Both the position numbers and the translations under genes were made by a program. A stretch of 47,920 bases of DNA from a virus: UHGV virus genome UHGV-0243102. One strand, 5' to 3'. Under the pieces are notes generated by a model, which did not search any database, had not been told where the DNA came from, and was given only the letters and a program-made list of their open reading frames with translations. Shown here piece after piece: positions 28,663 through 47,870 of this stretch (its first letter is position 1; every line of letters starts with the position of its first letter).

Positions 28663-29271
28663 TCACCCCGCGAAGCTTAAAAGCTGGTTTGCGGCGTTCT
28701 CGACTTCCAGCTGGCTGTTGAATGAACGGGAGAGGATCCACCGCCAGAGAACATCAAGCGATGCTTTGTACAATTCCTGAAATTCGCATTCGTCCATGCT
28801 GGCGAAAGAAATGCTGCGAGGGTGTTTTTTCAGCGTGCCGTCCGGCAGCTGTATGGCGTCATAGTGGCCAGCTTCGACAATGACCCACGCCCGGTAGGCA
28901 TCGAAAGATTTGCAGAGGCTGATACTGCCGGCGCGCTTCTCGGCTATACGGTCGAGGTATTGCTCGGCGGCATCAAGCAATGCCGATTCACTCCCGCCAT
29001 ATGCCGCCAGGTATTTGGCGTAACCGGTGATAAGCCTGCGCTCGTTAGACGAGATCGCTCCGCCAGTAGGCTCCCAGTATTCAAAGCCGAGATTGAGTAA
29101 AGCGAAATAGCGGCGATGAAACGCCGGGTTGCGGACAAGCTTATAGTCAGCTTCCAGAACGGCGCCGAGCTTGCATTTTGATTGCAGGAAATCACTGGTC
29201 TCCTGCGTTGCAGGGATCAGAATTCCTTGAGACTGTTTTATAAGGTGTAATTGTTGCGCCATGGGTTTCAC
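28663..29271 (-). CDS. Hypothetical nin-region protein (202 aa).
   Basis: ORF only. Confidence 0.35.
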   Translation of the reverse strand: MKPMAQQLHLIKQSQGILIPATQETSDFLQSKCKLGAVLEADYKLVRNPAFHRRYFALLNLGFEYWEPTGGAISSNERRLITGYAKYLAAYGGSESALLDAAEQYLDRIAEKRAGSISLCKSFDAYRAWVIVEAGHYDAIQLPDGTLKKHPRSISFASMDECEFQELYKASLDVLWRWILSRSFNSQLEVENAANQLLSFAG

Positions 29272-29319: not shown

Positions 29320-29622
29320 TTATTGCAGCTTACTCTCGGTTTCGTCAATGCAACCAGCATCTTTAGACAGTTCTTTAAATTCTTCAATTGTCAGCAAAAA
29401 CTGGTTTTTCCTTACCTTTTCGAGCCCGGTAATTTTTCCTTCCTCACTCGAGATTAAAAACTTCCCACCTTGCCTGATTATGTCTACCACTTCGGCGATA
29501 TCGAGATCCACTTCATCCCCCTGAGCGACATACAGACGCAAAATATAGTCCGGCGACAGCATCAAAGGGACACGCTTATTGCGATACTTTGGGGAATGCC
29601 AGTCACCAAAAAGGTGTATCAA
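29320..29622 (-). CDS. Small protein (100 aa) co-transcribed downstream of the dinI-like gene under a LexA box. Candidate SOS-controlled antirepressor.
   Basis: A 4-nt overlap with the DinI-like stop. The operon is preceded by a canonical LexA box. The prophage repressor has no autocleavage domain. Confidence 0.4.
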   Translation of the reverse strand: MIHLFGDWHSPKYRNKRVPLMLSPDYILRLYVAQGDEVDLDIAEVVDIIRQGGKFLISSEEGKITGLEKVRKNQFLLTIEEFKELSKDAGCIDETESKLQ

Positions 29623-29852
29623 TAAAACCAGTCGTCGGCGCTTTCCCAGGTCTCCTGTAGAATTTCTGCAATGGTTTCTTTATCACCATCTATGCCGCCG
29701 AAAACGCTGAGCCCATCAGCACCCGCGCGACGAATAGATAATTTGCAGTCATCGTATTTTTGATTTAATCGCCGAAGGAATTCGGCCTCTAACGCTGGTT
29801 CAGCACCGTTAGGTAGTTTTTTAGCTTTGTCGATGGTTACTTCGATTCTCAT
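29619..29852 (-). CDS. dinI: DinI-family protein (77 aa).
   Basis: MRIEVTIDKAKKLPNGAEPALEAEFLRRL...SVFGG...ETIAEILQETWESADDWFY matches E. coli DinI (MRIEVTIAK...ISEILQETWESADDWF). Confidence 0.8.
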   Translation of the reverse strand: MRIEVTIDKAKKLPNGAEPALEAEFLRRLNQKYDDCKLSIRRAGADGLSVFGGIDGDKETIAEILQETWESADDWFY

Positions 29853-29871
29853 AGTATCACCCCATTCGATA

Positions 29872-29891
29872 TACTGTATAAATAAACAGTA
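29872..29891. promoter_or_regulatory. LexA (SOS) box TACTGTATAAATAAACAGTA, 20 bp upstream of the dinI-like start.
   Basis: A near-perfect CTGT-N8-ACAG palindrome with flanking TA/TA. Confidence 0.75.
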
Positions 29892-29960
29892 CACCTAACT
29901 TGCTGAATGTTCAATATCTTAAGAGCACAAAATGTTAATTTTTATCAGGGATGATTAAAG

Positions 29961-29982
29961 AAAACCCGCCGTAGCGGGTTGA
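29961..29982 (-). terminator. Rho-independent terminator after the methyltransferase gene.
   Basis: On the transcribed strand, AACCCGCTACGGCGGGTTTTCTTT: a GC stem followed by a T-run. Confidence 0.6.
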
Positions 29983-35157: not shown

Positions 35158-35485
35158 GCATAGCCTCCTGAACATCTAAAACGCGTTGAAATACTGGACT
35201 ACCGAGCAGGCTGTAATTCATCCCGATCGCTACCTTTGGCGCCATGCCGAATCGTTGCATGTCAAAGTCGATGACGACGCGCTGGTCGCGAAATAACCCC
35301 AATCGTCCGTGACGAACAATCTCGCCGCTGGCCGCCGCCTCGCGGAAATACTTCAGAACGGTATCGCGGCTCAGGCCCAGTTTTTTCATTGCTTCGGTGG
35401 TCGTCAGGCGCCCCTGATGCTTAGTGATACGAATCACGGCACTGACGTACTCACGGCGCTCTGCTGCTGATAATGCTCTAGCCAT
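35150..35485 (-). CDS. Small DNA-binding (HTH-like) protein (~111 aa) downstream of P.
   Basis: LTTTEAMKKLGLSRDTVLKYFREA has a helix-turn-helix character. Confidence 0.3.
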   Translation of the reverse strand: MARALSAAERREYVSAVIRITKHQGRLTTTEAMKKLGLSRDTVLKYFREAAASGEIVRHGRLGLFRDQRVVIDFDMQRFGMAPKVAIGMNYSLLGSPVFQRVLDVQEAMHG

Positions 35486-36221
35486 GGTTACGCCCTCTAC
35501 CAAGGCCAAACTTCGCGCGGATTTCAGCGATTTTGTTTAAGCCCTGCTCCTGTGTTAATGGTCTTCCGCCAAGCTTCTGGATCTGCTTAACCGGCTCCGG
35601 AATAACTTCACCCGCGTTCACCCGACGAACCATGCGCAACAGTTCCTCTGATGCTTTTCGGCGTAATTCGGAGTCGCTTAATCCCTTCGCGCGCATATCG
35701 GTATACAGACCGGTCACCATCCAGTAGCAGGCTTTGTGTTTCAGCGTTATCGGTTCGATTTTGTGTTCAGGCCATGGGTACGACTCAGCGTCCGGATACT
35801 GACCGCGGGTCCGGCAATACTGGTAAACCATATCAACCAGCTCACTCGCGTCTGGCAGGCCTACCGTCACCGCCTCCTCAGAACGGCACCAGGCAACAAA
35901 CTGACCAGGTGATGGCATGAAGGGTTTTTCCTGCTTGCGAGCAACCCGCATCCCGGCGTTAATCTGCTCTACCGTGGTGATGCCGTTTTCCTTGAACGCC
36001 AGGAGCCACTGACGACGCATCTCGTTGAGGTCTTCCGCTGATTTGTTGGCCAGCGCCGGGAATACGGCGAGCAACTGGCGAAACAGTTCGTTGAATACCT
36101 CAGCCGTCTTTGTCGCCTGATGTGCGAAGGTCTGCGCATCCTGCATTTCAGGCATGCCGGCGGCGATACGTTGGAAATTTTTCCGATCGAAGTTATGCAT
36201 GCTATCTGCGATAGATTTCAT
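35478..36221 (-). CDS. P: Replication protein P (DnaB helicase loader), lambda P-like.
   Basis: MKSIADSMHNFDRKNFQRIAAGMPE...NGITTVEQINAGMRVARKQEKPFMPSPGQFVAWCRSEE...DAESYPW...AEIRAKFGL aligns along its length with lambda P as remembered. Confidence 0.85.
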   Translation of the reverse strand: MKSIADSMHNFDRKNFQRIAAGMPEMQDAQTFAHQATKTAEVFNELFRQLLAVFPALANKSAEDLNEMRRQWLLAFKENGITTVEQINAGMRVARKQEKPFMPSPGQFVAWCRSEEAVTVGLPDASELVDMVYQYCRTRGQYPDAESYPWPEHKIEPITLKHKACYWMVTGLYTDMRAKGLSDSELRRKASEELLRMVRRVNAGEVIPEPVKQIQKLGGRPLTQEQGLNKIAEIRAKFGLGRGRNHG

Positions 36222-37159
36222 TCGAGTACCCCGTCGATCCAGTCGGTATTGTTCAGCGCACTGGCGCCTGATGTGGTTTTTGATGGGCCTGAGCTGCGCA
36301 GGCGTTTAGTCGTGAGCGAATCCCACTGCTTGCGTAGTTTTGATGGGCTGAGAATGTTTTCTTGCCAGAAATCGTCTTCATTGGCCCACTTGAACAGTTC
36401 GCAGATTTCATAGTGAGTGCGCTTGTCCTGCAGGCGCATCAGGCGGATGGTGTTTGCCCATTCAACCCAGTTCGGCTCTGAGAGTGAGGCATTCACGGTC
36501 AGGGCTTTATCGAAAATCCATCGCGCGGCTTTGAGGTCGTCAGCTGTTCCCCAGGATTTACCAGATGGGGTGTAAATCCCGTCAGCAGCTTCAGGATGGC
36601 GAGAGAGAAACTCCTGAGTTTTCTTGTTTCGGGATTCTTCAGAATTCCGAGACGAAGATCTTTTAATATTGTTTTTGTTATAGTCTTGGGTGTCTACCGT
36701 TTCCGGGAAGGTTTTTTCCGATTCCGGGAAGGAAATTCCCGTTTTCGGGAAGAGTTTTCCCGTTTTCGGTTTGTCCAAAATCCAGGCGGATAGCTCAGTA
36801 TTTATACCGACGGTTTTCATCACGCCATGCTTGTGACTAAAAATAATCCCCCGCGCCGCGAGTAGTTTTATCGCATCTGAAACATGAGAATCACTCAAAC
36901 CGGTTAACTCAGAAATGACGGTATTTGTTACCCGATCCTGCTTTTTGTTCCATCCGTAGGTAAGCCAGATAACTGCCTCAAGACACTGCCACTCGCGCCC
37001 GGACATGCGCAGCCGCGGTTTGAGTTTCTGAATCTCATTGGCGATCCTGGTATAGCCATTGGACAGGTCGGCCATGCGACCTCCCGTTAGTTCGGTTTTG
37101 ATTGGAAAATTGATAACTTCAGCGGTATTTGACATACTTAATCCCGTGAATTGGTCCAA
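36218..37159 (-). CDS. O: Replication initiator O, lambda O-like. The probable true start is M9, at 37135.
   Basis: The N-terminus NTAEVINFP...LEAVIWLTYGWNK resembles lambda O (NTAKILNF...TYGWNK). It carries iteron repeats internally. A 4-nt overlap with P. Confidence 0.75.
   Translation of the reverse strand: MDQFTGLSMSNTAEVINFPIKTELTGGRMADLSNGYTRIANEIQKLKPRLRMSGREWQCLEAVIWLTYGWNKKQDRVTNTVISELTGLSDSHVSDAIKLLAARGIIFSHKHGVMKTVGINTELSAWILDKPKTGKLFPKTGISFPESEKTFPETVDTQDYNKNNIKRSSSRNSEESRNKKTQEFLSRHPEAADGIYTPSGKSWGTADDLKAARWIFDKALTVNASLSEPNWVEWANTIRLMRLQDKRTHYEICELFKWANEDDFWQENILSPSKLRKQWDSLTTKRLRSSGPSKTTSGASALNNTDWIDGVLE
36690..36778. repeat. Origin of replication: four iteron-like direct repeats (CCGTTTTCGGGAAG / TTCCGGGAAGG) with an adjacent AT-rich tract inside the O gene.
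   Basis: cgTTTCCGGGAAGG, gaTTCCGGGAAGG, cCCGTTTTCGGGAAG and cCCGTTTTCGG, with the AT-rich stretch at 36660-36690. This is the classical lambda-type ori-within-O arrangement. Confidence 0.65.
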
Positions 37160-37471: not shown

Positions 37472-37816
37472 TCAGTCCCATCCCAGCGGACCCGGGCGGC
37501 ACCGCTCAGCACGCAGGCCTATATCAGCGAGCGTTTCAACAGACTGCAGGTAATGCCTGGACACAACGACTGCTTCCGGCGGTACAACCTGCAATCCGAG
37601 TATTGAGAGTTCTTTCGCCACATCAGCAAAATGGCCCTCCCCTTTACGCCTGCTTGCCGTTGACTCACTGATCCCCAAAAGTTCGGCGTAAACCTTTTGG
37701 CCGACCGATGAAAGCCGGTTGAGTAAGACGCTTTCAATCTCAACCGGGTTGAGAATTGGTGGATCTAACTTTCGTGCTATTGCGTTTTGCATTGGTGATA
37801 ATCCTTTTGAAGTCAT
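37472..37816 (-). CDS. cII: CII-like transcriptional activator.
   Basis: Its position immediately after cro with an ATGA overlap. NPVEIESVLLNRLSSVGQKVYAELLGISESTASRRK parallels lambda CII (ALRIESALLNKIAMLGTEKTAEAVGVDKSQISRWKR). Confidence 0.6.
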   Translation of the reverse strand: MTSKGLSPMQNAIARKLDPPILNPVEIESVLLNRLSSVGQKVYAELLGISESTASRRKGEGHFADVAKELSILGLQVVPPEAVVVSRHYLQSVETLADIGLRAERCRPGPLGWD

Positions 37817-38064
37817 TGATTTATTGATGCTTCATCAGTTGCTCTTGGAGGTGTGAATTCGGGCCAAATGTTCATCCAGCGATCTGGAAGACAATCAGCT
37901 CTCGTAACAACGCCTTTTGTGTGATTTTCAATCTCTATGGCCCGTTCTGGTGATATGGCGGATTTTCCAGAAGCCATCTGAGATAGATATGATTTTGATA
38001 TTCCGAGTTTTTCAGCTAGGAACTTCGCGTTACCGCGCTCTAAAAAATATTGACTAAGTTGCAT
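37813..38064 (-). CDS. cro: Cro-like HTH regulator (83 aa).
   Basis: FLAEKLGISKSYLSQMASGK is an HTH. It is divergent from the repressor gene. Confidence 0.65.
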   Translation of the reverse strand: MQLSQYFLERGNAKFLAEKLGISKSYLSQMASGKSAISPERAIEIENHTKGVVTRADCLPDRWMNIWPEFTPPRATDEASINQ

Positions 38065-38096: not shown

Positions 38097-38114
38097 GTTT
38101 ATATCTTTATAAAC
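38097..38114. promoter_or_regulatory. Operator (OR): 18-bp palindrome GTTTATATCTTTATAAAC between cro and the repressor gene.
   Basis: GTTTAT-N6-ATAAAC, repeated as GTTTATATTTTCATAAAC at 38673. Confidence 0.6.
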
Positions 38115-38164: not shown

Positions 38165-38536
38165 ATGAGCATAAAAGAAATAAGAAGCAAGCGACTGGCT
38201 GACTGGTTTGCTGAGCGCACTCTTCCTGAGAGAGAGAAAAGCTATTTATCACAACTGATAAATGGTAAGACTTCTTTTGGCGAAAGAGCAGCACGGCGGA
38301 TAGAAAGGGATTACAATATGCCCCCAGGTTATCTGGATGCTATGGATGGCGGTAACGAGCATGACGGCTCTATGCCTTCAGTGCTTTCGTCAATGCTTAC
38401 AGCTGATGAAGTTAATCTTATTAAGTTTTATCGTGGTTTTCCGGATTCTGAGAAAAAAACAGTACTAATTGAATTCGAAACAAAGTTCAAAAAATACAAT
38501 CAGTTATTCGCTGAACTACTCGCCTCCCGTAAATAA
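38165..38536 (+). CDS. CI-like prophage repressor without an S24 autopeptidase domain (~123 aa from MSIKEI).
   Basis: It is divergent from cro. The ORF-track start at 38093 would place the operator palindrome inside the coding sequence, so an internal start is likely. There is no Ser/Lys dyad or Ala-Gly cleavage region. Confidence 0.5.
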   Translation: MSIKEIRSKRLADWFAERTLPEREKSYLSQLINGKTSFGERAARRIERDYNMPPGYLDAMDGGNEHDGSMPSVLSSMLTADEVNLIKFYRGFPDSEKKTVLIEFETKFKKYNQLFAELLASRK

Positions 38537-38672: not shown

Positions 38673-38690
38673 GTTTATATTTTCATAAAC
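38673..38690. promoter_or_regulatory. Operator (OL) GTTTATATTTTCATAAAC in the AT-rich leftward-operon promoter region. An adjacent half-site-like GTTTACATAAAG lies at 38661.
   Basis: The same 18-bp palindrome as OR. It is embedded in a promoter-like AT-rich tract upstream of the first + operon gene. Confidence 0.55.
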
Positions 38691-46216: not shown

Positions 46217-46511
46217 CGTGTCCATCAGAAATATTGTGATCGTGTCCATCATAGTTCATGGACGCGGCTATGGACACAAAAAGAGTGGCTTACGTTGTCT
46301 TGGGTTGTCTGTATATGTAAACAGTAGTTTTTCGAAGAGGGTTGATTCTGGCGGGTCTTGAGCAGGAAATTGTCTAAGGTTGGCTTAGGGTGTCTTGGTA
46401 TCAATTATCGATGTGAGCGATGATTGAAAAGTTTCTTATATTCTTCATATATAAGGATTTTTTAACCTTATTTCGTAACGTTTTCTATTTAATGGACACA
46501 TCGGTGGACAC
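46217..46511. repeat. Six copies of (A)TGGACAC, two on the minus strand and four on the plus strand, flanking an AT-rich ~200-bp tract. Candidate integrase arm-type / att-flanking sites.
   Basis: Copies at 46217-27, 46241-52, 46258-64, 46270-77, 46492-99 and 46505-11. Internal direct repeats of TGTCTTGG lie at ~46296 and ~46350. Confidence 0.4.
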
Positions 46512-46652: not shown

Positions 46653-46970
46653 TTAAACAGGAGCATCATCGTGCCGCATATCGTTGATCACGTGCGTTGC
46701 GACTCCGAGCACTTCAACCTCATCCATGGCATCACCTTCAATCGATTCTCCCTCAACAGTGATAAATGAACGGCCCATAAGTTTTGCAAACTGAAGTTCT
46801 CCAGCAGAGCGGATAAGCAGAATACTCCCCTGCTTCACTTTCATGGACAAATCAAGAACAACATACCCACGGTCAGTTGCAATAACTCGTGAGTTTGCTG
46901 TGATGTTGCACAGAGAATTCACTGTCAAAGCAGTTTCAATGTAATCCGCAGCCGGTGACGGGAATCCCAC
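46653..46970 (-). CDS. UmuD'/HumD-like protein (S24 peptidase fold) that natively starts at the UmuD' cleavage position.
   Basis: GTG-GFPSPAADYIE... begins exactly where E. coli UmuD is cleaved (Cys24-Gly25, GFPSPAADYVE). DLSM (Ser) and FAKL (Lys) are in the expected places. A GGAGGG Shine-Dalgarno lies 8 nt upstream. Confidence 0.55.
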   Translation of the reverse strand: MGFPSPAADYIETALTVNSLCNITANSRVIATDRGYVVLDLSMKVKQGSILLIRSAGELQFAKLMGRSFITVEGESIEGDAMDEVEVLGVATHVINDMRHDDAPV

Positions 46971-46972
46971 GA

Positions 46973-47212
46973 TTACAGCCCTCCGTTCTGGTTATAAAGC
47001 TGGAATGTTCGCTCGTCCCCCTCTTTCGTTGAGACATCCCGGAACGTCGTCACATAATGCTCTATCCACTGGTTTGCCTGACGCGGTGACCATATCCAGT
47101 TAACTTTTGCGAGTTCACGGAGAAACCTGGAAGTTGTCACCGTGCGGCGGCCATTTGGCTCAATGACAATTGCCTGACGCCAGGCCATTTCGATATCTGA
47201 GTTTCGCGGCAT
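46973..47212 (-). CDS. Hypothetical 79-aa protein, first gene of the LexA-box operon.
   Basis: A GAGGTG Shine-Dalgarno. The LexA box lies 19 bp upstream. It is followed 2 nt later by the UmuD'-like gene. Confidence 0.4.
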   Translation of the reverse strand: MPRNSDIEMAWRQAIVIEPNGRRTVTTSRFLRELAKVNWIWSPRQANQWIEHYVTTFRDVSTKEGDERTFQLYNQNGGL

Positions 47213-47230
47213 AATTTCACCTCACATAAA

Positions 47231-47250
47231 TACTGTTTTTATATACAGTA
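47231..47250. promoter_or_regulatory. LexA (SOS) box TACTGTTTTTATATACAGTA.
   Basis: CTGT-N8-ACAG with TA flanks, immediately upstream of the 47212 start codon. Confidence 0.75.
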
Positions 47251-47318: not shown

Positions 47319-47870
47319 TTATTCAGCAGCTGGCAGGTACTTATAGATCGTCTTCACGTCTACCCCGATCACTCCCGCCACCTGCTGACGGGTAGCACCT
47401 GCATCCAACATCCGGCGGCAGCGTTCCACTACTTCTTCGGTCATTACCCGGCGGCGTCCGCCGATGCGGCCCTGCTCTCTCGCCGCGGCTAATCCTGCCC
47501 GGGTACGTTCCACTATCAACTCGCGCTCCATTTCAGCTAATGCGCTCATGACATGAAAGAAGAATCGGCCGGCAGGTGTCGAAGTATCGATCGAGTCGGT
47601 CAAGCTGCGAAAATGGATTCCCCTCTCCTGCAGTTCAGATACCAACGTTATGAGGTCACGGACACTGCGACCGAGGCGATCCAGCTTCCAGACCACCAGC
47701 GAATCACCAGGTCGAAGACGGCGTATCGCTTTCCGTAATCCTGGCCTTTTAGCATTCTTACCGCTGGCGGTGTCTTCGAAAATCAGTTCACATTCTGCGC
47801 GAACCAGCGCGTTTTTCTGTAAATCGAGGTTTTGATCGCCGGTAGATACCCGCGCGTAGCCAATCAGCAT
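47319..47870 (-). CDS. Serine recombinase: a Hin/Gin/Cin/Pin-family DNA invertase (183 aa).
   Basis: MLIGYARVSTGDQNLDLQ...VVWKLDRLGRS...SLTDSIDTS...GRFFFHVMSALAEMERELI is a near-canonical invertase. It has a C-terminal HTH. Confidence 0.85.
   Translation of the reverse strand: MLIGYARVSTGDQNLDLQKNALVRAECELIFEDTASGKNAKRPGLRKAIRRLRPGDSLVVWKLDRLGRSVRDLITLVSELQERGIHFRSLTDSIDTSTPAGRFFFHVMSALAEMERELIVERTRAGLAAAREQGRIGGRRRVMTEEVVERCRRMLDAGATRQQVAGVIGVDVKTIYKYLPAAE

What the first reader, a model, noticed from the sequence alone, without database searches (positions are those of the whole stretch)
29320..29891. Gifsy-type SOS induction circuit: LexA box, dinI-like gene, small antirepressor candidate, and a repressor lacking S24
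The cI-like repressor (38165..38536) has no LexA-like autocleavage domain. A canonical LexA box (TACTGTATAAATAAACAGTA) sits 20 bp upstream of a dinI homologue, and a 100-aa gene is translationally coupled behind it. That matches the architecture described for Salmonella Gifsy prophages, where LexA controls a dinI-antirepressor operon that inactivates a non-cleavable repressor. The 100-aa protein is therefore a candidate trans-acting antirepressor. The terminator at 29961-29982 insulates this operon from the methyltransferase gene above it.
Basis: partly seen in the sequence, partly recalled or inferred. Interest (0 to 1): 0.6.

Follow-up and report, generated by a model that had tools for sequence, protein, structure and literature searches.

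The report
SOS-controlled dinI–antirepressor prophage induction module
This prophage carries the known Gifsy-type DNA-damage switch, in which the host LexA repressor holds down a dinI gene and a small protein predicted to switch off a non-cleavable phage repressor; it is a new member of a known system, not a new kind of system.

Summary
They are a near-consensus LexA box (29872-29891), a dinI homologue (29619-29852, minus strand), a small downstream gene, and a 123-aa immunity repressor without a peptidase S24 domain (38165-38536).

The Gifsy reading holds. The order terminator, LexA box, dinI, small ORF, DUF1367 gene is collinear with Gifsy-2. The small protein falls in phrog_340 together with a GfoA-like protein and E. 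coli Rem, a proven antirepressor of DicA. Across related loci this antirepressor class occurs only with this repressor family (7 of 7). Two relatives that lack dinI still carry a LexA box upstream.

Two details are wrong. The gene is 63 aa and starts at GTG 29511, not 100 aa from TTG 29622. It is not translationally coupled to dinI: a 107-nt non-coding leader lies between them, and this leader is more conserved than dinI itself.

The repressor is a chimera. Its CI-type N-terminal domain is fused to S24 in Burkholderia and Pseudomonas phages, but here it carries a DicA-like C-terminal module.

Verdict: new member of a known kind, of modest interest. Binding and induction remain untested.

The parts
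29963..29980 (-). Intrinsic-terminator-like hairpin (AACCCGC TACG GCGGGTT followed by TTCTTT). It lies after the methyltransferase gene and upstream of the SOS promoter.
   Evidence: Found by the consensus scan. The same hairpin sequence is conserved in Gifsy-2, mEp237 and SPN3UB (alignment A1). Lemire et al. describe terminator-like palindromes preceding the LexA box in all Gifsy phages.
29909..29914 (-). Putative -35 hexamer TTGAAC. After a 17-nt spacer comes TACTGT (29886-29891) as the putative -10, which is the first half of the LexA box.
   Evidence: Read from the sequence. TTGAAC/TTGAAT is conserved in alignment A1. The simple promoter scan did not call it because the -10 is weak. This part is inferred.
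29872..29891 (.). LexA box. It reads TACTGTTTATTTATACAGTA in gene orientation and matches CTGT-N8-ACAG.
   Evidence: It is unique in the window and 0 are expected by chance. A box at the same fixed distance is present in 107 of 113 related loci, and this exact variant occurs in 13 of them.
29619..29852 (-). dinI homologue (77 aa), the first gene of the SOS operon.
   Evidence: Pfam DinI E=4.8e-24. phrog_189 E=2.6e-25. 62% identical to Gifsy-2 DinI by tblastn.
29512..29618 (-). Conserved non-coding leader of 107 nt between dinI and the antirepressor gene. It contains UCCCUUUGA (29562-29570), which could pair with the Shine-Dalgarno sequence AGGGGGA (29516-29522).
   Evidence: It is 94% identical to Klebsiella phages, against 73% for the dinI CDS. 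Its core is 78-82% identical to Gifsy-2, against 64% for dinI. Indels in the T-run show it is not coding. The SD pairing is predicted with p=0.98 in the window, but the fold z-score is -0.23 and there are no compensatory pairs.
29320..29511 (-). Candidate trans-acting antirepressor, 63 aa, GTG start ('class C').
   Evidence: phrog_340 E=1.4e-14, and all 11 family members match it. The same PHROG holds GfoA-like mEp237 gp49 and E. coli Rem. hhalign against Rem gives E=4e-6 and against the GfoA/GftA alignment E=1e-4. The start is supported.
28663..29262 (-). DUF1367 gene at the position of the Gifsy irsA homologue (STM1020 in Gifsy-2).
   Evidence: Pfam DUF1367 E=1.7e-88. Collinear with STM1020 in Gifsy-2.
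38165..38536 (+). Immunity repressor of 123 aa. It combines a CI-type N-terminal DNA-binding domain with a DicA/GtgR-like C-terminal module and has no S24 domain.
   Evidence: No Peptidase_S24 match at E<=10. Residues 2-60 match PDB 7nkv 'Phage repressor protein CI' at 2.8e-21. The C-terminal part is 34% identical to DicA, E=1e-10, and matches GtgR at E=1e-4. The start codon is conserved in homologues.
38097..38114 (.). Putative operator palindrome GTTTATATCTTTATAAAC, between the cro-like gene and the repressor gene.
   Evidence: The two perfect GTTTAT-N6-ATAAAC sites in the window flank the repressor gene. They sit in inverted repeats of about 50 nt.
38673..38690 (.). Putative operator palindrome GTTTATATTTTCATAAAC, upstream of the leftward early operon (recE/recT side).
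37813..38064 (-). cro-like gene (YdaS/HTH_3), divergent from the repressor gene.
   Evidence: Pfam YdaS_toxin 4.3e-11 and HTH_3 2.3e-8.

Best explanation
This is a Gifsy-type SOS induction module in an apparently complete lambdoid prophage, probably of the Klebsiella oxytoca complex.

1. In undamaged cells, host LexA binds the box at 29872-29891. The box overlaps the -10 of a promoter that an upstream terminator insulates from the replication/methylase operon.
2. After DNA damage, RecA-stimulated LexA cleavage opens this promoter. A transcript is made that covers dinI, a 107-nt leader, a 63-aa protein (29320-29511) and probably the DUF1367 gene.
3. The 63-aa protein acts as an antirepressor. 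It binds the 123-aa immunity repressor (38165-38536), which has no autocleavage domain, and removes it from the GTTTAT-N6-ATAAAC operators on both sides of its gene. This derepresses both early operons.

Shown here: the sequence elements, their conservation, homology to proven antirepressors, absence of S24, and strict co-occurrence of this antirepressor class with this repressor family.

Inferred: LexA binding, the protein-protein interaction, its target on the repressor (I favour the DicA-like C-terminal module), and any role of the leader in limiting translation.
For: 1. Architecture. The terminator, -35, LexA box, dinI, leader, small ORF and DUF1367 gene are collinear with Gifsy-2. The small ORF's GTG aligns with the gftA GTG, which the paper's primer pp864 confirms.

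2. Published precedent. Lemire et al. 2011 (PMC3121763) showed that the ORF between dinI and irsA is the antirepressor, that it starts with a non-canonical codon, and that LexA controls the operon.

3. Homology.
- The window protein matches phrog_340 at 1.4e-14, and all 11 members of its family match.
- phrog_340 is also matched by mEp237 gp49 at 1.4e-20. I infer that gp49 is GfoA-like because its N- and C-termini match the sequences implied by the gfoA primers pp866/867.
- phrog_340 is also matched by Rem of Qin at 4.4e-21. Rem derepresses DicA-controlled dicBp 165-fold (PMC10448788).
- Profile comparisons give E=4e-6 and probability 87% against Rem, and E=1e-4 against the GfoA/GftA alignment.

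4. SOS linkage is conserved.
- 107 of 113 loci with the leader have CTGT-N8-ACAG at a fixed position.
- A family member at 51% identity has dinI and a LexA box upstream, and one at 44% identity (BLASTP; 47% by phmmer) does too.
- Two members without dinI have a box 170-190 nt upstream. One box is a perfect consensus; the other deviates by one base from CTGT-N8-ACAG.

5. Partner co-occurrence.
- All 7 class C loci that include the immunity region carry a homologue of the window's repressor.
- All 8 GftA-class loci carry GtgR homologues.
- All 11 GfoA-class loci carry a third type of repressor.
- There are no cross-combinations.

6. Repressor.
- It has no S24 domain.
- Proteins with the same N-terminal domain do carry S24 in Burkholderia phage vB_E177 and Pseudomonas phage PG1.
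- Its C-terminal module is shared with DicA and GtgR.
- Operators are found only around its gene.

7. No other antirepressor-annotated family was found among the 20 ORFs scanned in two PHROG searches, most of them early-region.
Against: - There is no pairwise BLASTP similarity to GftA or to the GfoA-like protein. Homology rests on profile methods, and the hhalign probability against GfoA/GftA is only 57%.
- The 63-aa protein lacks the N-terminal beta-hairpin segment present in GfoA and GftA (alignments).
- Fold searches found no informative match in PDB or BFVD.
- The co-occurrence counts are not phylogenetically independent.
- Six related loci, including class C ones, have lost the LexA box, so SOS control is not obligatory in the family.
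- Nothing here measures LexA binding, protein binding or induction.
Confidence: 0.78

Rival explanations
1. The module is a genuine LexA-controlled dinI operon, but the small ORF is not the inducer of this prophage. Induction would depend on something else, such as an antirepressor from another resident prophage (the paper shows a Fels-1 antirepressor, FsoA, acting in trans on the Gifsy-2 repressor), a protease, or loss of repressor synthesis. The small protein would then have another role, for example modulating RecA or the SOS response, or acting on a different repressor.
For: - Cross-talk is documented: the Fels-1 antirepressor FsoA inactivates the Gifsy-2 repressor GtgR (PMC3121763).
- The identical class C protein occurs with repressors that are only 32-36% identical to each other and differ in architecture: 118 aa in L127 and about 190 aa in L021/L031.
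- There is no pairwise similarity to proven antirepressors.
Against: - Class and family co-occur strictly in 7 of 7 loci.
- The protein belongs to phrog_340 together with Rem and a GfoA-like protein.
- No alternative antirepressor family was found among the 20 ORFs scanned, most of them early-region.
- The repressor has no cleavage domain.
Confidence: 0.12
2. One reading: a 100-aa protein is translated from TTG 29622, overlapping the dinI stop codon (ATTGA), and is translationally coupled to dinI.
For: The ORF is open for 100 codons in this window, and the TTG overlaps the TGA of dinI. Some database annotations extend to 73-81 aa.
Against: - The TTG is CTG in the nearest relatives.
- Indels in the T-run shift the frame upstream of the GTG (P0004 against P0005; leaders).
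- The same leader precedes a different ORF class in another frame.
- Homologues at 35-57% identity are 61-68 aa and start at the GTG position, one of them with ATG.
- A strong SD, AGGGGGA, lies 4 nt before the GTG.
- The phrog_340 match covers only residues 40-99 of the 100-aa ORF.
Confidence: 0.03
3. The LexA-box-like palindrome, dinI and the small ORF are a decayed or non-functional remnant. The box would not be a working operator, and the prophage would not be SOS-inducible through this locus.
For: The putative -10 (TACTGT) is weak and was not called by the promoter scan. Some relatives have replaced the box region.
Against: - The box has both CTGT/ACAG arms and is conserved at a fixed position in 107 of 113 loci, while its spacer varies.
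- All ORFs in the module are intact.
- The leader and the SD are highly conserved.
- The same -35 to box geometry was shown to be functional in Gifsy-2.
Confidence: 0.05

Closest known systems
Gifsy-1/Gifsy-3 GfoA/GfhA antirepressors with GfoR/GfhR repressors, and Gifsy-2 GftA with GtgR (Salmonella; Lemire, Figueroa-Bossi & Bossi 2011, PMC3121763)
   Same: - The same operon layout and position in the genome: terminator, LexA box over the promoter, dinI, a small ORF with a non-canonical start, then the irsA/DUF1367 gene, downstream of the replication genes.
- The same conserved leader between dinI and the antirepressor gene.
- A short repressor without S24.
- The antirepressor gene lies outside the immunity region.
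   Different: - The small protein is a distinct sequence class: 63 aa against 73-82 aa. It has no BLASTP similarity to these proteins and lacks their N-terminal beta segment.
- GftA is in a different PHROG (phrog_4847).
- The repressor has a different N-terminal DNA-binding domain (PDB 7nkv type) and shares only the C-terminal module with GtgR (E=1e-4).
Rem/DicA of the E. coli cryptic prophage Qin (Ragunathan et al. 2023, PMC10448788)
   Same: - Rem is in the same PHROG (phrog_340) and is the best profile match to the window family (E=4e-6).
- The DicA C-terminal module is 34% identical to that of the window's repressor.
- Rem is a proven antirepressor of a short, non-cleavable repressor.
   Different: - According to that paper, the signal that induces Rem is unknown.
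- In the Qin annotation rem lies between hokD and ydfU with no dinI listed. I did not scan its upstream region for a LexA box.
- DicA has a classical HTH_3 N-terminal domain, unlike the window's repressor.
Tum of coliphage 186 and the split tumA/tumB of PSP3 and Fels-2
   Same: A LexA-controlled antirepressor associated with DinI-like sequence. The window's DinI hits the DinI-like part of Tum at 25% identity by tblastn.
   Different: In 186, the antirepressor and DinI are one polypeptide with the antirepressor part first. Here they are two genes in the reverse order, as in the Gifsy phages (PMC3121763 discussion). These are P2-like phages rather than lambdoid ones.
Lambda CI / P22 C2 / LexA-type autocleavable repressors
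   Same: The repressor occupies the same position, divergent from cro and between two operator regions. Its N-terminal domain is of a CI type that is fused to S24 in other phages.
   Different: There is no S24 domain and no Ala-Gly site. Inactivation is predicted to occur through binding of an antirepressor rather than through RecA-stimulated self-cleavage.

Membership tests
Gifsy-type LexA/dinI/antirepressor induction module | A LexA box overlaps a promoter that is preceded by a terminator-like palindrome, lies directly upstream of a dinI homologue, and sits downstream of the replication genes. | tested here: met
   Box at 29872-29891. Terminator at 29963-29980. dinI matches Pfam DinI at 4.8e-24. 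O/P replication genes lie at 35478-37159. The region aligns with Gifsy-2.
Gifsy-type LexA/dinI/antirepressor induction module | A small ORF (about 60-85 aa) with a non-canonical start codon lies between dinI and the irsA (DUF1367) homologue. | tested here: met
   The 63-aa GTG-start ORF at 29320-29511 lies between dinI and DUF1367. It aligns with the gftA start.
Gifsy-type LexA/dinI/antirepressor induction module | The small protein is homologous to experimentally proven antirepressors (GfoA, GftA, FsoA, Rem). | tested here: met
   Met at profile level only. phrog_340 at 1.4e-14 is shared with GfoA-like gp49 and Rem. hhalign gives E=4e-6 against Rem and 1e-4 against GfoA/GftA. Pairwise BLASTP is negative.
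Gifsy-type LexA/dinI/antirepressor induction module | A short immunity repressor without a cleavage domain, related to GfoR, GtgR or DicA. | tested here: met
   123 aa with no S24. The C-terminal module matches DicA at E=1e-10, GtgR at 1e-4 and the NCBIfam DicA model at 1.7e-9. The N-terminal domain is different from theirs.
Gifsy-type LexA/dinI/antirepressor induction module | LexA binds the box and represses the operon, and induction requires LexA cleavage. | not testable with these tools
   Only the sequence match and its conservation are available.
Gifsy-type LexA/dinI/antirepressor induction module | The antirepressor binds the repressor and releases it from operator DNA. | not testable with these tools
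   Indirect support only: co-occurrence of class C with this repressor family in 7 of 7 loci, with no cross-combinations.
LexA/CI autocleavable repressors (peptidase S24) | A C-terminal Peptidase_S24 domain with a Ser/Lys dyad and an Ala-Gly cleavage site. | tested here: not met
   No S24 hit at E<=10 and no AG dipeptide in the sequence. Positive controls with the same N-terminal domain do score S24, at 2e-15 and 3e-17.
DinI family | A match to the DinI-like domain over the full length of an approximately 80-aa protein. | tested here: met
   Pfam PF06183 at 4.8e-24, covering 63 of 63 profile positions. NCBIfam DinI scores 96.8 bits, below the equivalog cut-off of 111. It is therefore a family member and not the chromosomal orthologue.
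Tum-type fused antirepressor-DinI (phage 186) | The antirepressor and DinI-like parts form one polypeptide, or are adjacent with the antirepressor first. | tested here: not met
   There are two separate genes 107 nt apart, with dinI first.
Large Ant/BRO/KilAC-type antirepressors (P22 Ant and similar) | Presence of Ant, BRO-N or KilA-C domains. | tested here: not met
   No Pfam family at E<=10. There is only a faint phrog_4792 match (0.0035) to a 37-residue stretch.

The most novel reading that the evidence does not exclude
The DicA-like C-terminal module of about 55 aa (consensus roughly L-x2-E-x2-L-x3-F-x2-[FL]-P-x-S/A-E/K-K) may be a portable antirepressor-receptor domain. In this lineage it would have replaced the S24 autocleavage domain on a CI-type DNA-binding domain. 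Small phrog_340/4847 antirepressors would co-diversify with it. Antirepressor cassettes would be exchanged precisely at the Shine-Dalgarno sequence of a conserved non-coding leader, and that leader would itself gate antirepressor translation through the UCCCUUUGA:UCAGGGGGA hairpin. This would set the SOS threshold for induction.
Probability: 0.25. Interest if true: 0.55.

Novelty: new member of a known kind. Interest (0 to 1): 0.3.

Why it matters
The finding extends the Gifsy/Rem antirepression mechanism of prophage induction to a Klebsiella-type prophage. It does so with a previously unnamed 63-aa antirepressor class and a cognate repressor family that current annotation calls 'hypothetical'.

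In practice, it corrects the gene model that an experimenter would clone: 63 aa from the GTG, not 100 aa.

It also offers a natural three-way set of antirepressor and repressor pairs behind one conserved leader. That set could be used to map how specificity is encoded. Because antirepressors act in trans, it is relevant to predicting which prophages in a polylysogen are induced together by DNA-damaging antibiotics.

It does not change the understanding of the mechanism.

Tried and rejected
- **Pairwise BLASTP** of the small protein against GftA and against GfoA-like gp49 gave no alignment.
- **hhalign with shallow class alignments** (Neff about 1) had no power. Even GfoA against GftA gave only P=0.0012. 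I repeated the comparison with a more diverse alignment.
- **Structure.** The single-sequence AF2 model was poor, with pLDDT 54. With an alignment the model reached pLDDT 80 and showed an alpha-beta-beta-alpha fold. Foldseek against PDB and BFVD then gave nothing below E=0.4. A PDB sequence search with the family profile also found nothing.
- **YuzE/DUF2283.** One JGI record names a homologue 'YuzE', but there is no Pfam match at E<=10. Rejected.
- **Leader as a known RNA.** There was no credible Rfam match, even with the lenient E<=1 search.
- **Leader as a structured RNA.** An SD-sequestering hairpin is predicted. However, the fold z-score is -0.23 and there are 0 compensatory pairs among 11 diverse leaders. 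I keep it only as a weak hypothesis.
- **The 100-aa TTG gene model.** Rejected (see observation check).
- **Homologue search with the repressor N-terminal domain** returned only 4 close hits. I established the S24 fusion from phage records instead.
- **PDB codes 7NKV, 8C3K and 8C3L** were not found in the paper library. The source organism of that structure remains unidentified here.
Full report
**1. Observation**

- The 20-mer TACTGTATAAATAAACAGTA occurs once in the window, at 29872-29891, and none is expected by chance.
- On the minus strand it lies 19 nt upstream of an ATG at 29852. That ATG opens a 77-aa ORF (29619-29852) that matches Pfam DinI at E=4.8e-24 over the whole profile and phrog_189 'RecA filament binding protein DinI'.
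- Upstream, just after the stop codon of a 642-aa C-5 cytosine methyltransferase (Pfam DNA_methylase), the scan finds a terminator-like hairpin at 29963-29980.
- A TTGAAC hexamer (29909-29914) lies 17 nt before TACTGT, the first half of the box. The box therefore overlaps the likely -10. This is read; the simple promoter scan did not call this promoter.
- The ORF at 38165-38536 encodes 123 aa with no Peptidase_S24 match even at E<=10.
- These parts of the observation are confirmed.

**2. The gene model needs correcting**

The '100-aa' ORF (29320-29622, TTG) is the longest mechanical ORF, but its first 37 codons are not coding:

- In the closest relatives the TTG is CTG (alignment A1).
- A T-run upstream of the conserved part varies from about 4 to 9 T among homologues and shifts the frame. 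Compare P0004 and P0005 and the leaders.
- The same upstream nucleotides precede a different ORF class read in another frame.
- The phrog_340 match covers only residues 40-99 of the 100-aa ORF.
- An exhaustive HMMER search of 1.84 billion representative proteins found only 14 relatives. The divergent ones (35-57% identity by BLASTP) are 61-68 aa and start at the position of the window's GTG 29511. One of them uses ATG at that position (L133).
- This GTG is preceded by AGGGGGA with a 4-nt spacer.
- It aligns with the GTG start of gftA in Gifsy-2. The expression primer pp864 of Lemire et al. confirms that start.

The gene is therefore 29320-29511 (63 aa). It is separated from dinI by a 107-nt leader, and there is no translational coupling.

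**3. Comparison with Gifsy**

Lemire, Figueroa-Bossi and Bossi (PMC3121763) reported the following:

- In the Gifsy prophages a LexA box, preceded by a terminator-like palindrome, sits next to a dinI homologue about 1.3 kb downstream of the replication genes.
- The interval between dinI and the irsA homologue encodes a small antirepressor with a non-canonical start codon.
- This protein binds short, non-cleavable repressors and removes them from DNA.

In the Gifsy-2 record the order is terminator, LexA box, dinI (STM1019), gftA (STM1020.1n), then STM1020. The window has the same order. Its gene at 28663-29262 is DUF1367 (E=1.7e-88), like STM1020.

The rest of the early region is also Gifsy-like: int, xis, recT, recE/exoVIII, repressor, cro (YdaS type), cII-like, O, P, ParB-like, methylase, then the SOS module, the nin-type genes and Q.

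**4. Is the small protein an antirepressor homologue?**

- Pairwise BLASTP against GftA and against mEp237 gp49 is negative.
- mEp237 gp49 is GfoA-like. Its N- and C-termini match the sequences implied by the gfoA primers pp866/pp867.
- At profile level the answer is yes. The window protein matches phrog_340 at 1.4e-14, and all 11 diverse members of its family match it. gp49 matches the same PHROG at 1.4e-20, and E. coli Qin Rem matches it at 4.4e-21.
- Rem is an experimentally shown antirepressor of DicA, giving 165-fold derepression of dicBp (PMC10448788).
- Profile comparison of the window family gives E=4e-6 and probability 87% against Rem. Against a GfoA/GftA alignment it gives E=1e-4 and probability 57%.
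- The aligned part is the C-terminal two-thirds. The window family lacks the N-terminal beta segment of GfoA and GftA.
- An AF2 model built with the family alignment (pLDDT 80) has an alpha-beta-beta-alpha fold. It has no informative match in PDB or BFVD.

**5. Comparative genomics of the module**

- Of the 113 loci with enough upstream sequence, 107 have CTGT-N8-ACAG at a fixed distance of 305-308 nt upstream of the leader core. The spacer of the box varies while its arms are kept.
- Three unrelated-looking cassettes follow the same leader: GfoA-like (81 loci), GftA-like (20) and the window's class (19). The junction falls at the Shine-Dalgarno sequence and start codon.
- More distant members of the window's class keep the SOS link. 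P0031 (51% identity) has dinI and a box upstream, and so does P0033 (44% by BLASTP, 47% by phmmer).
- P0035 (38%) has no dinI but has a perfect TACTGTTTATATATACAGTA 171 nt upstream. P0032 (44% by BLASTP, 47% by phmmer) has AACTGGATATGCATACAGTT about 190 nt upstream.

**6. Partner co-occurrence**

Where the fetched locus reaches the immunity region:

- All 7 loci of the window's class, including the three distant ones, encode a homologue of the window's repressor (32-67% identity).
- All 8 GftA-class loci encode GtgR homologues (46-100%).
- All 11 GfoA-class loci encode a third repressor type that is about 27% identical to GtgR.
- There are no cross-combinations.

These counts are not phylogenetically independent, but they are what a cognate pair would show.

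The identical 63-aa protein occurs with a 118-aa repressor (Klebsiella phage 5 LV-2017). It also occurs with a repressor of about 190 aa that carries an extra N-terminal HTH in front of a 32-36% identical copy of the module (L021, L031). This recalls GfoA acting on both GfoR and GfhR.

**7. The repressor**

- Residues 2-60 match the solved 'Phage repressor protein CI' N-terminal domain, PDB 7nkv, at 2.8e-21.
- The same domain is 62% identical in Burkholderia phage vB_E177 and 41% identical in Pseudomonas phage PG1. There it is fused to a Peptidase_S24 domain (E=2e-15 and 3e-17) and sits in the same position, divergent from a YdaS-type cro in PG1.
- In the window, residues 63-123 are instead 34% identical to the C-terminal part of DicA (E=1e-10) and related to that of GtgR (E=1e-4; NCBIfam DicA 1.7e-9).
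- The protein is therefore a chimera in which a DicA-type module stands where S24 stands in its relatives. This fits a change from self-cleavage to antirepressor control.
- The only two perfect GTTTAT-N6-ATAAAC palindromes in the window flank the gene (38097-38114 and 38673-38690). They lie inside inverted repeats of about 50 nt, consistent with operators for both early operons.
- The start codon at 38165 is conserved in homologues and was called the same way by an independent gene caller.

**8. The leader**

- The 107 nt between dinI and the GTG are more conserved than dinI itself. Against Klebsiella phages the figures are 94% for the leader and 73% for dinI. Against Gifsy-2 the leader core is 78-82% identical, against 64% for dinI.
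- Thermodynamic folding pairs UCCCUUUGA (29562-29570) with the SD UCAGGGGGA at probability 0.98 in the window. The probability is 0.72-1.0 across the GftA-class and window-class leaders. RNAalifold picks the same helix.
- Against this, the fold z-score is -0.23. None of the 20 predicted pairs shows a compensatory change. No credible Rfam family matches.
- I record SD sequestration as a weak hypothesis. The reason for the leader's conservation is unexplained.

**9. Verdict**

The locus is a member of the Gifsy-type LexA/dinI/antirepressor kind. It has a new antirepressor subfamily and a chimeric repressor, and it has a corrected gene model. LexA binding, the protein-protein interaction and the effect on induction are inferred. 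Novelty: new member of a known kind. Interest is modest (0.3).

Noticed in passing
window 47229-47248 (box), 46973-47212 and 46653-46970 (minus strand): There is a second strong LexA box, TACTGTATATAAAAACAGTA. It lies about 20 nt upstream of a 79-aa ORF (phrog_3893, unknown function). A 105-aa ORF follows directly and matches the PHROGs annotated 'UmuD-like protein' (phrog_3469, E=1e-44). Both lie beyond the integrase end of the prophage, next to a resolvase/invertase gene (47319-47870). This looks like a separate small SOS operon.
   Followed up: partly
window 46309-46324: A third CTGT-N8-ACAG box (TACTGTTTACATATACAGAC on the minus strand) lies about 30 nt upstream of the integrase ORF start (46277). 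In total the window has four such boxes, against 0.42 expected by chance. Whether int is SOS-regulated was not examined.
   Followed up: no
window 29512-29618; loci L002, L003, L001, L128, L133: The non-coding leader between dinI and the antirepressor gene is more conserved than the dinI coding sequence. It is shared by phages that carry three different antirepressor cassettes, with the recombination junction at the SD and start codon. The reason for this conservation is unexplained. The SD-hairpin idea is not supported by covariation.
   Followed up: partly
loci L030, L053, L065, L083, L091 (and L045): In six related IMG/VR loci, including some with the window's antirepressor class, the LexA-box region upstream of dinI is replaced by an unrelated GC-rich sequence (CACGCCGGGATCTGTGCGGGGGGTATCCGG...). 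These modules may have left the SOS regulon.
   Followed up: no
L130 9272-9291 and 8409-9005: In a metagenomic relative, a second perfect LexA box (TACTGTTTTAATATACAGTA) lies a few hundred bases upstream of a divergently oriented KwaA/KwaB (Kiwa defence) gene pair. That pair is inserted where dinI normally sits.
   Followed up: no
L001 1619-2457 (Klebsiella phage ST13-OXA48phi12.4): In this relative, an XRE-family regulator plus an ImmA/IrrE metallopeptidase pair is annotated immediately upstream of the LexA-dinI-antirepressor module. In the window a methyltransferase occupies that position.
   Followed up: no
L005 1796-2035 (Salmonella phage SPN3UB): SPN3UB has dinI and DUF1367 but lacks the conserved leader. 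A different small ORF sits between them (…SGRALMYRRGDEISFVPL…KAGYRIT…). It looks like a further GfoA-like variant.
   Followed up: no
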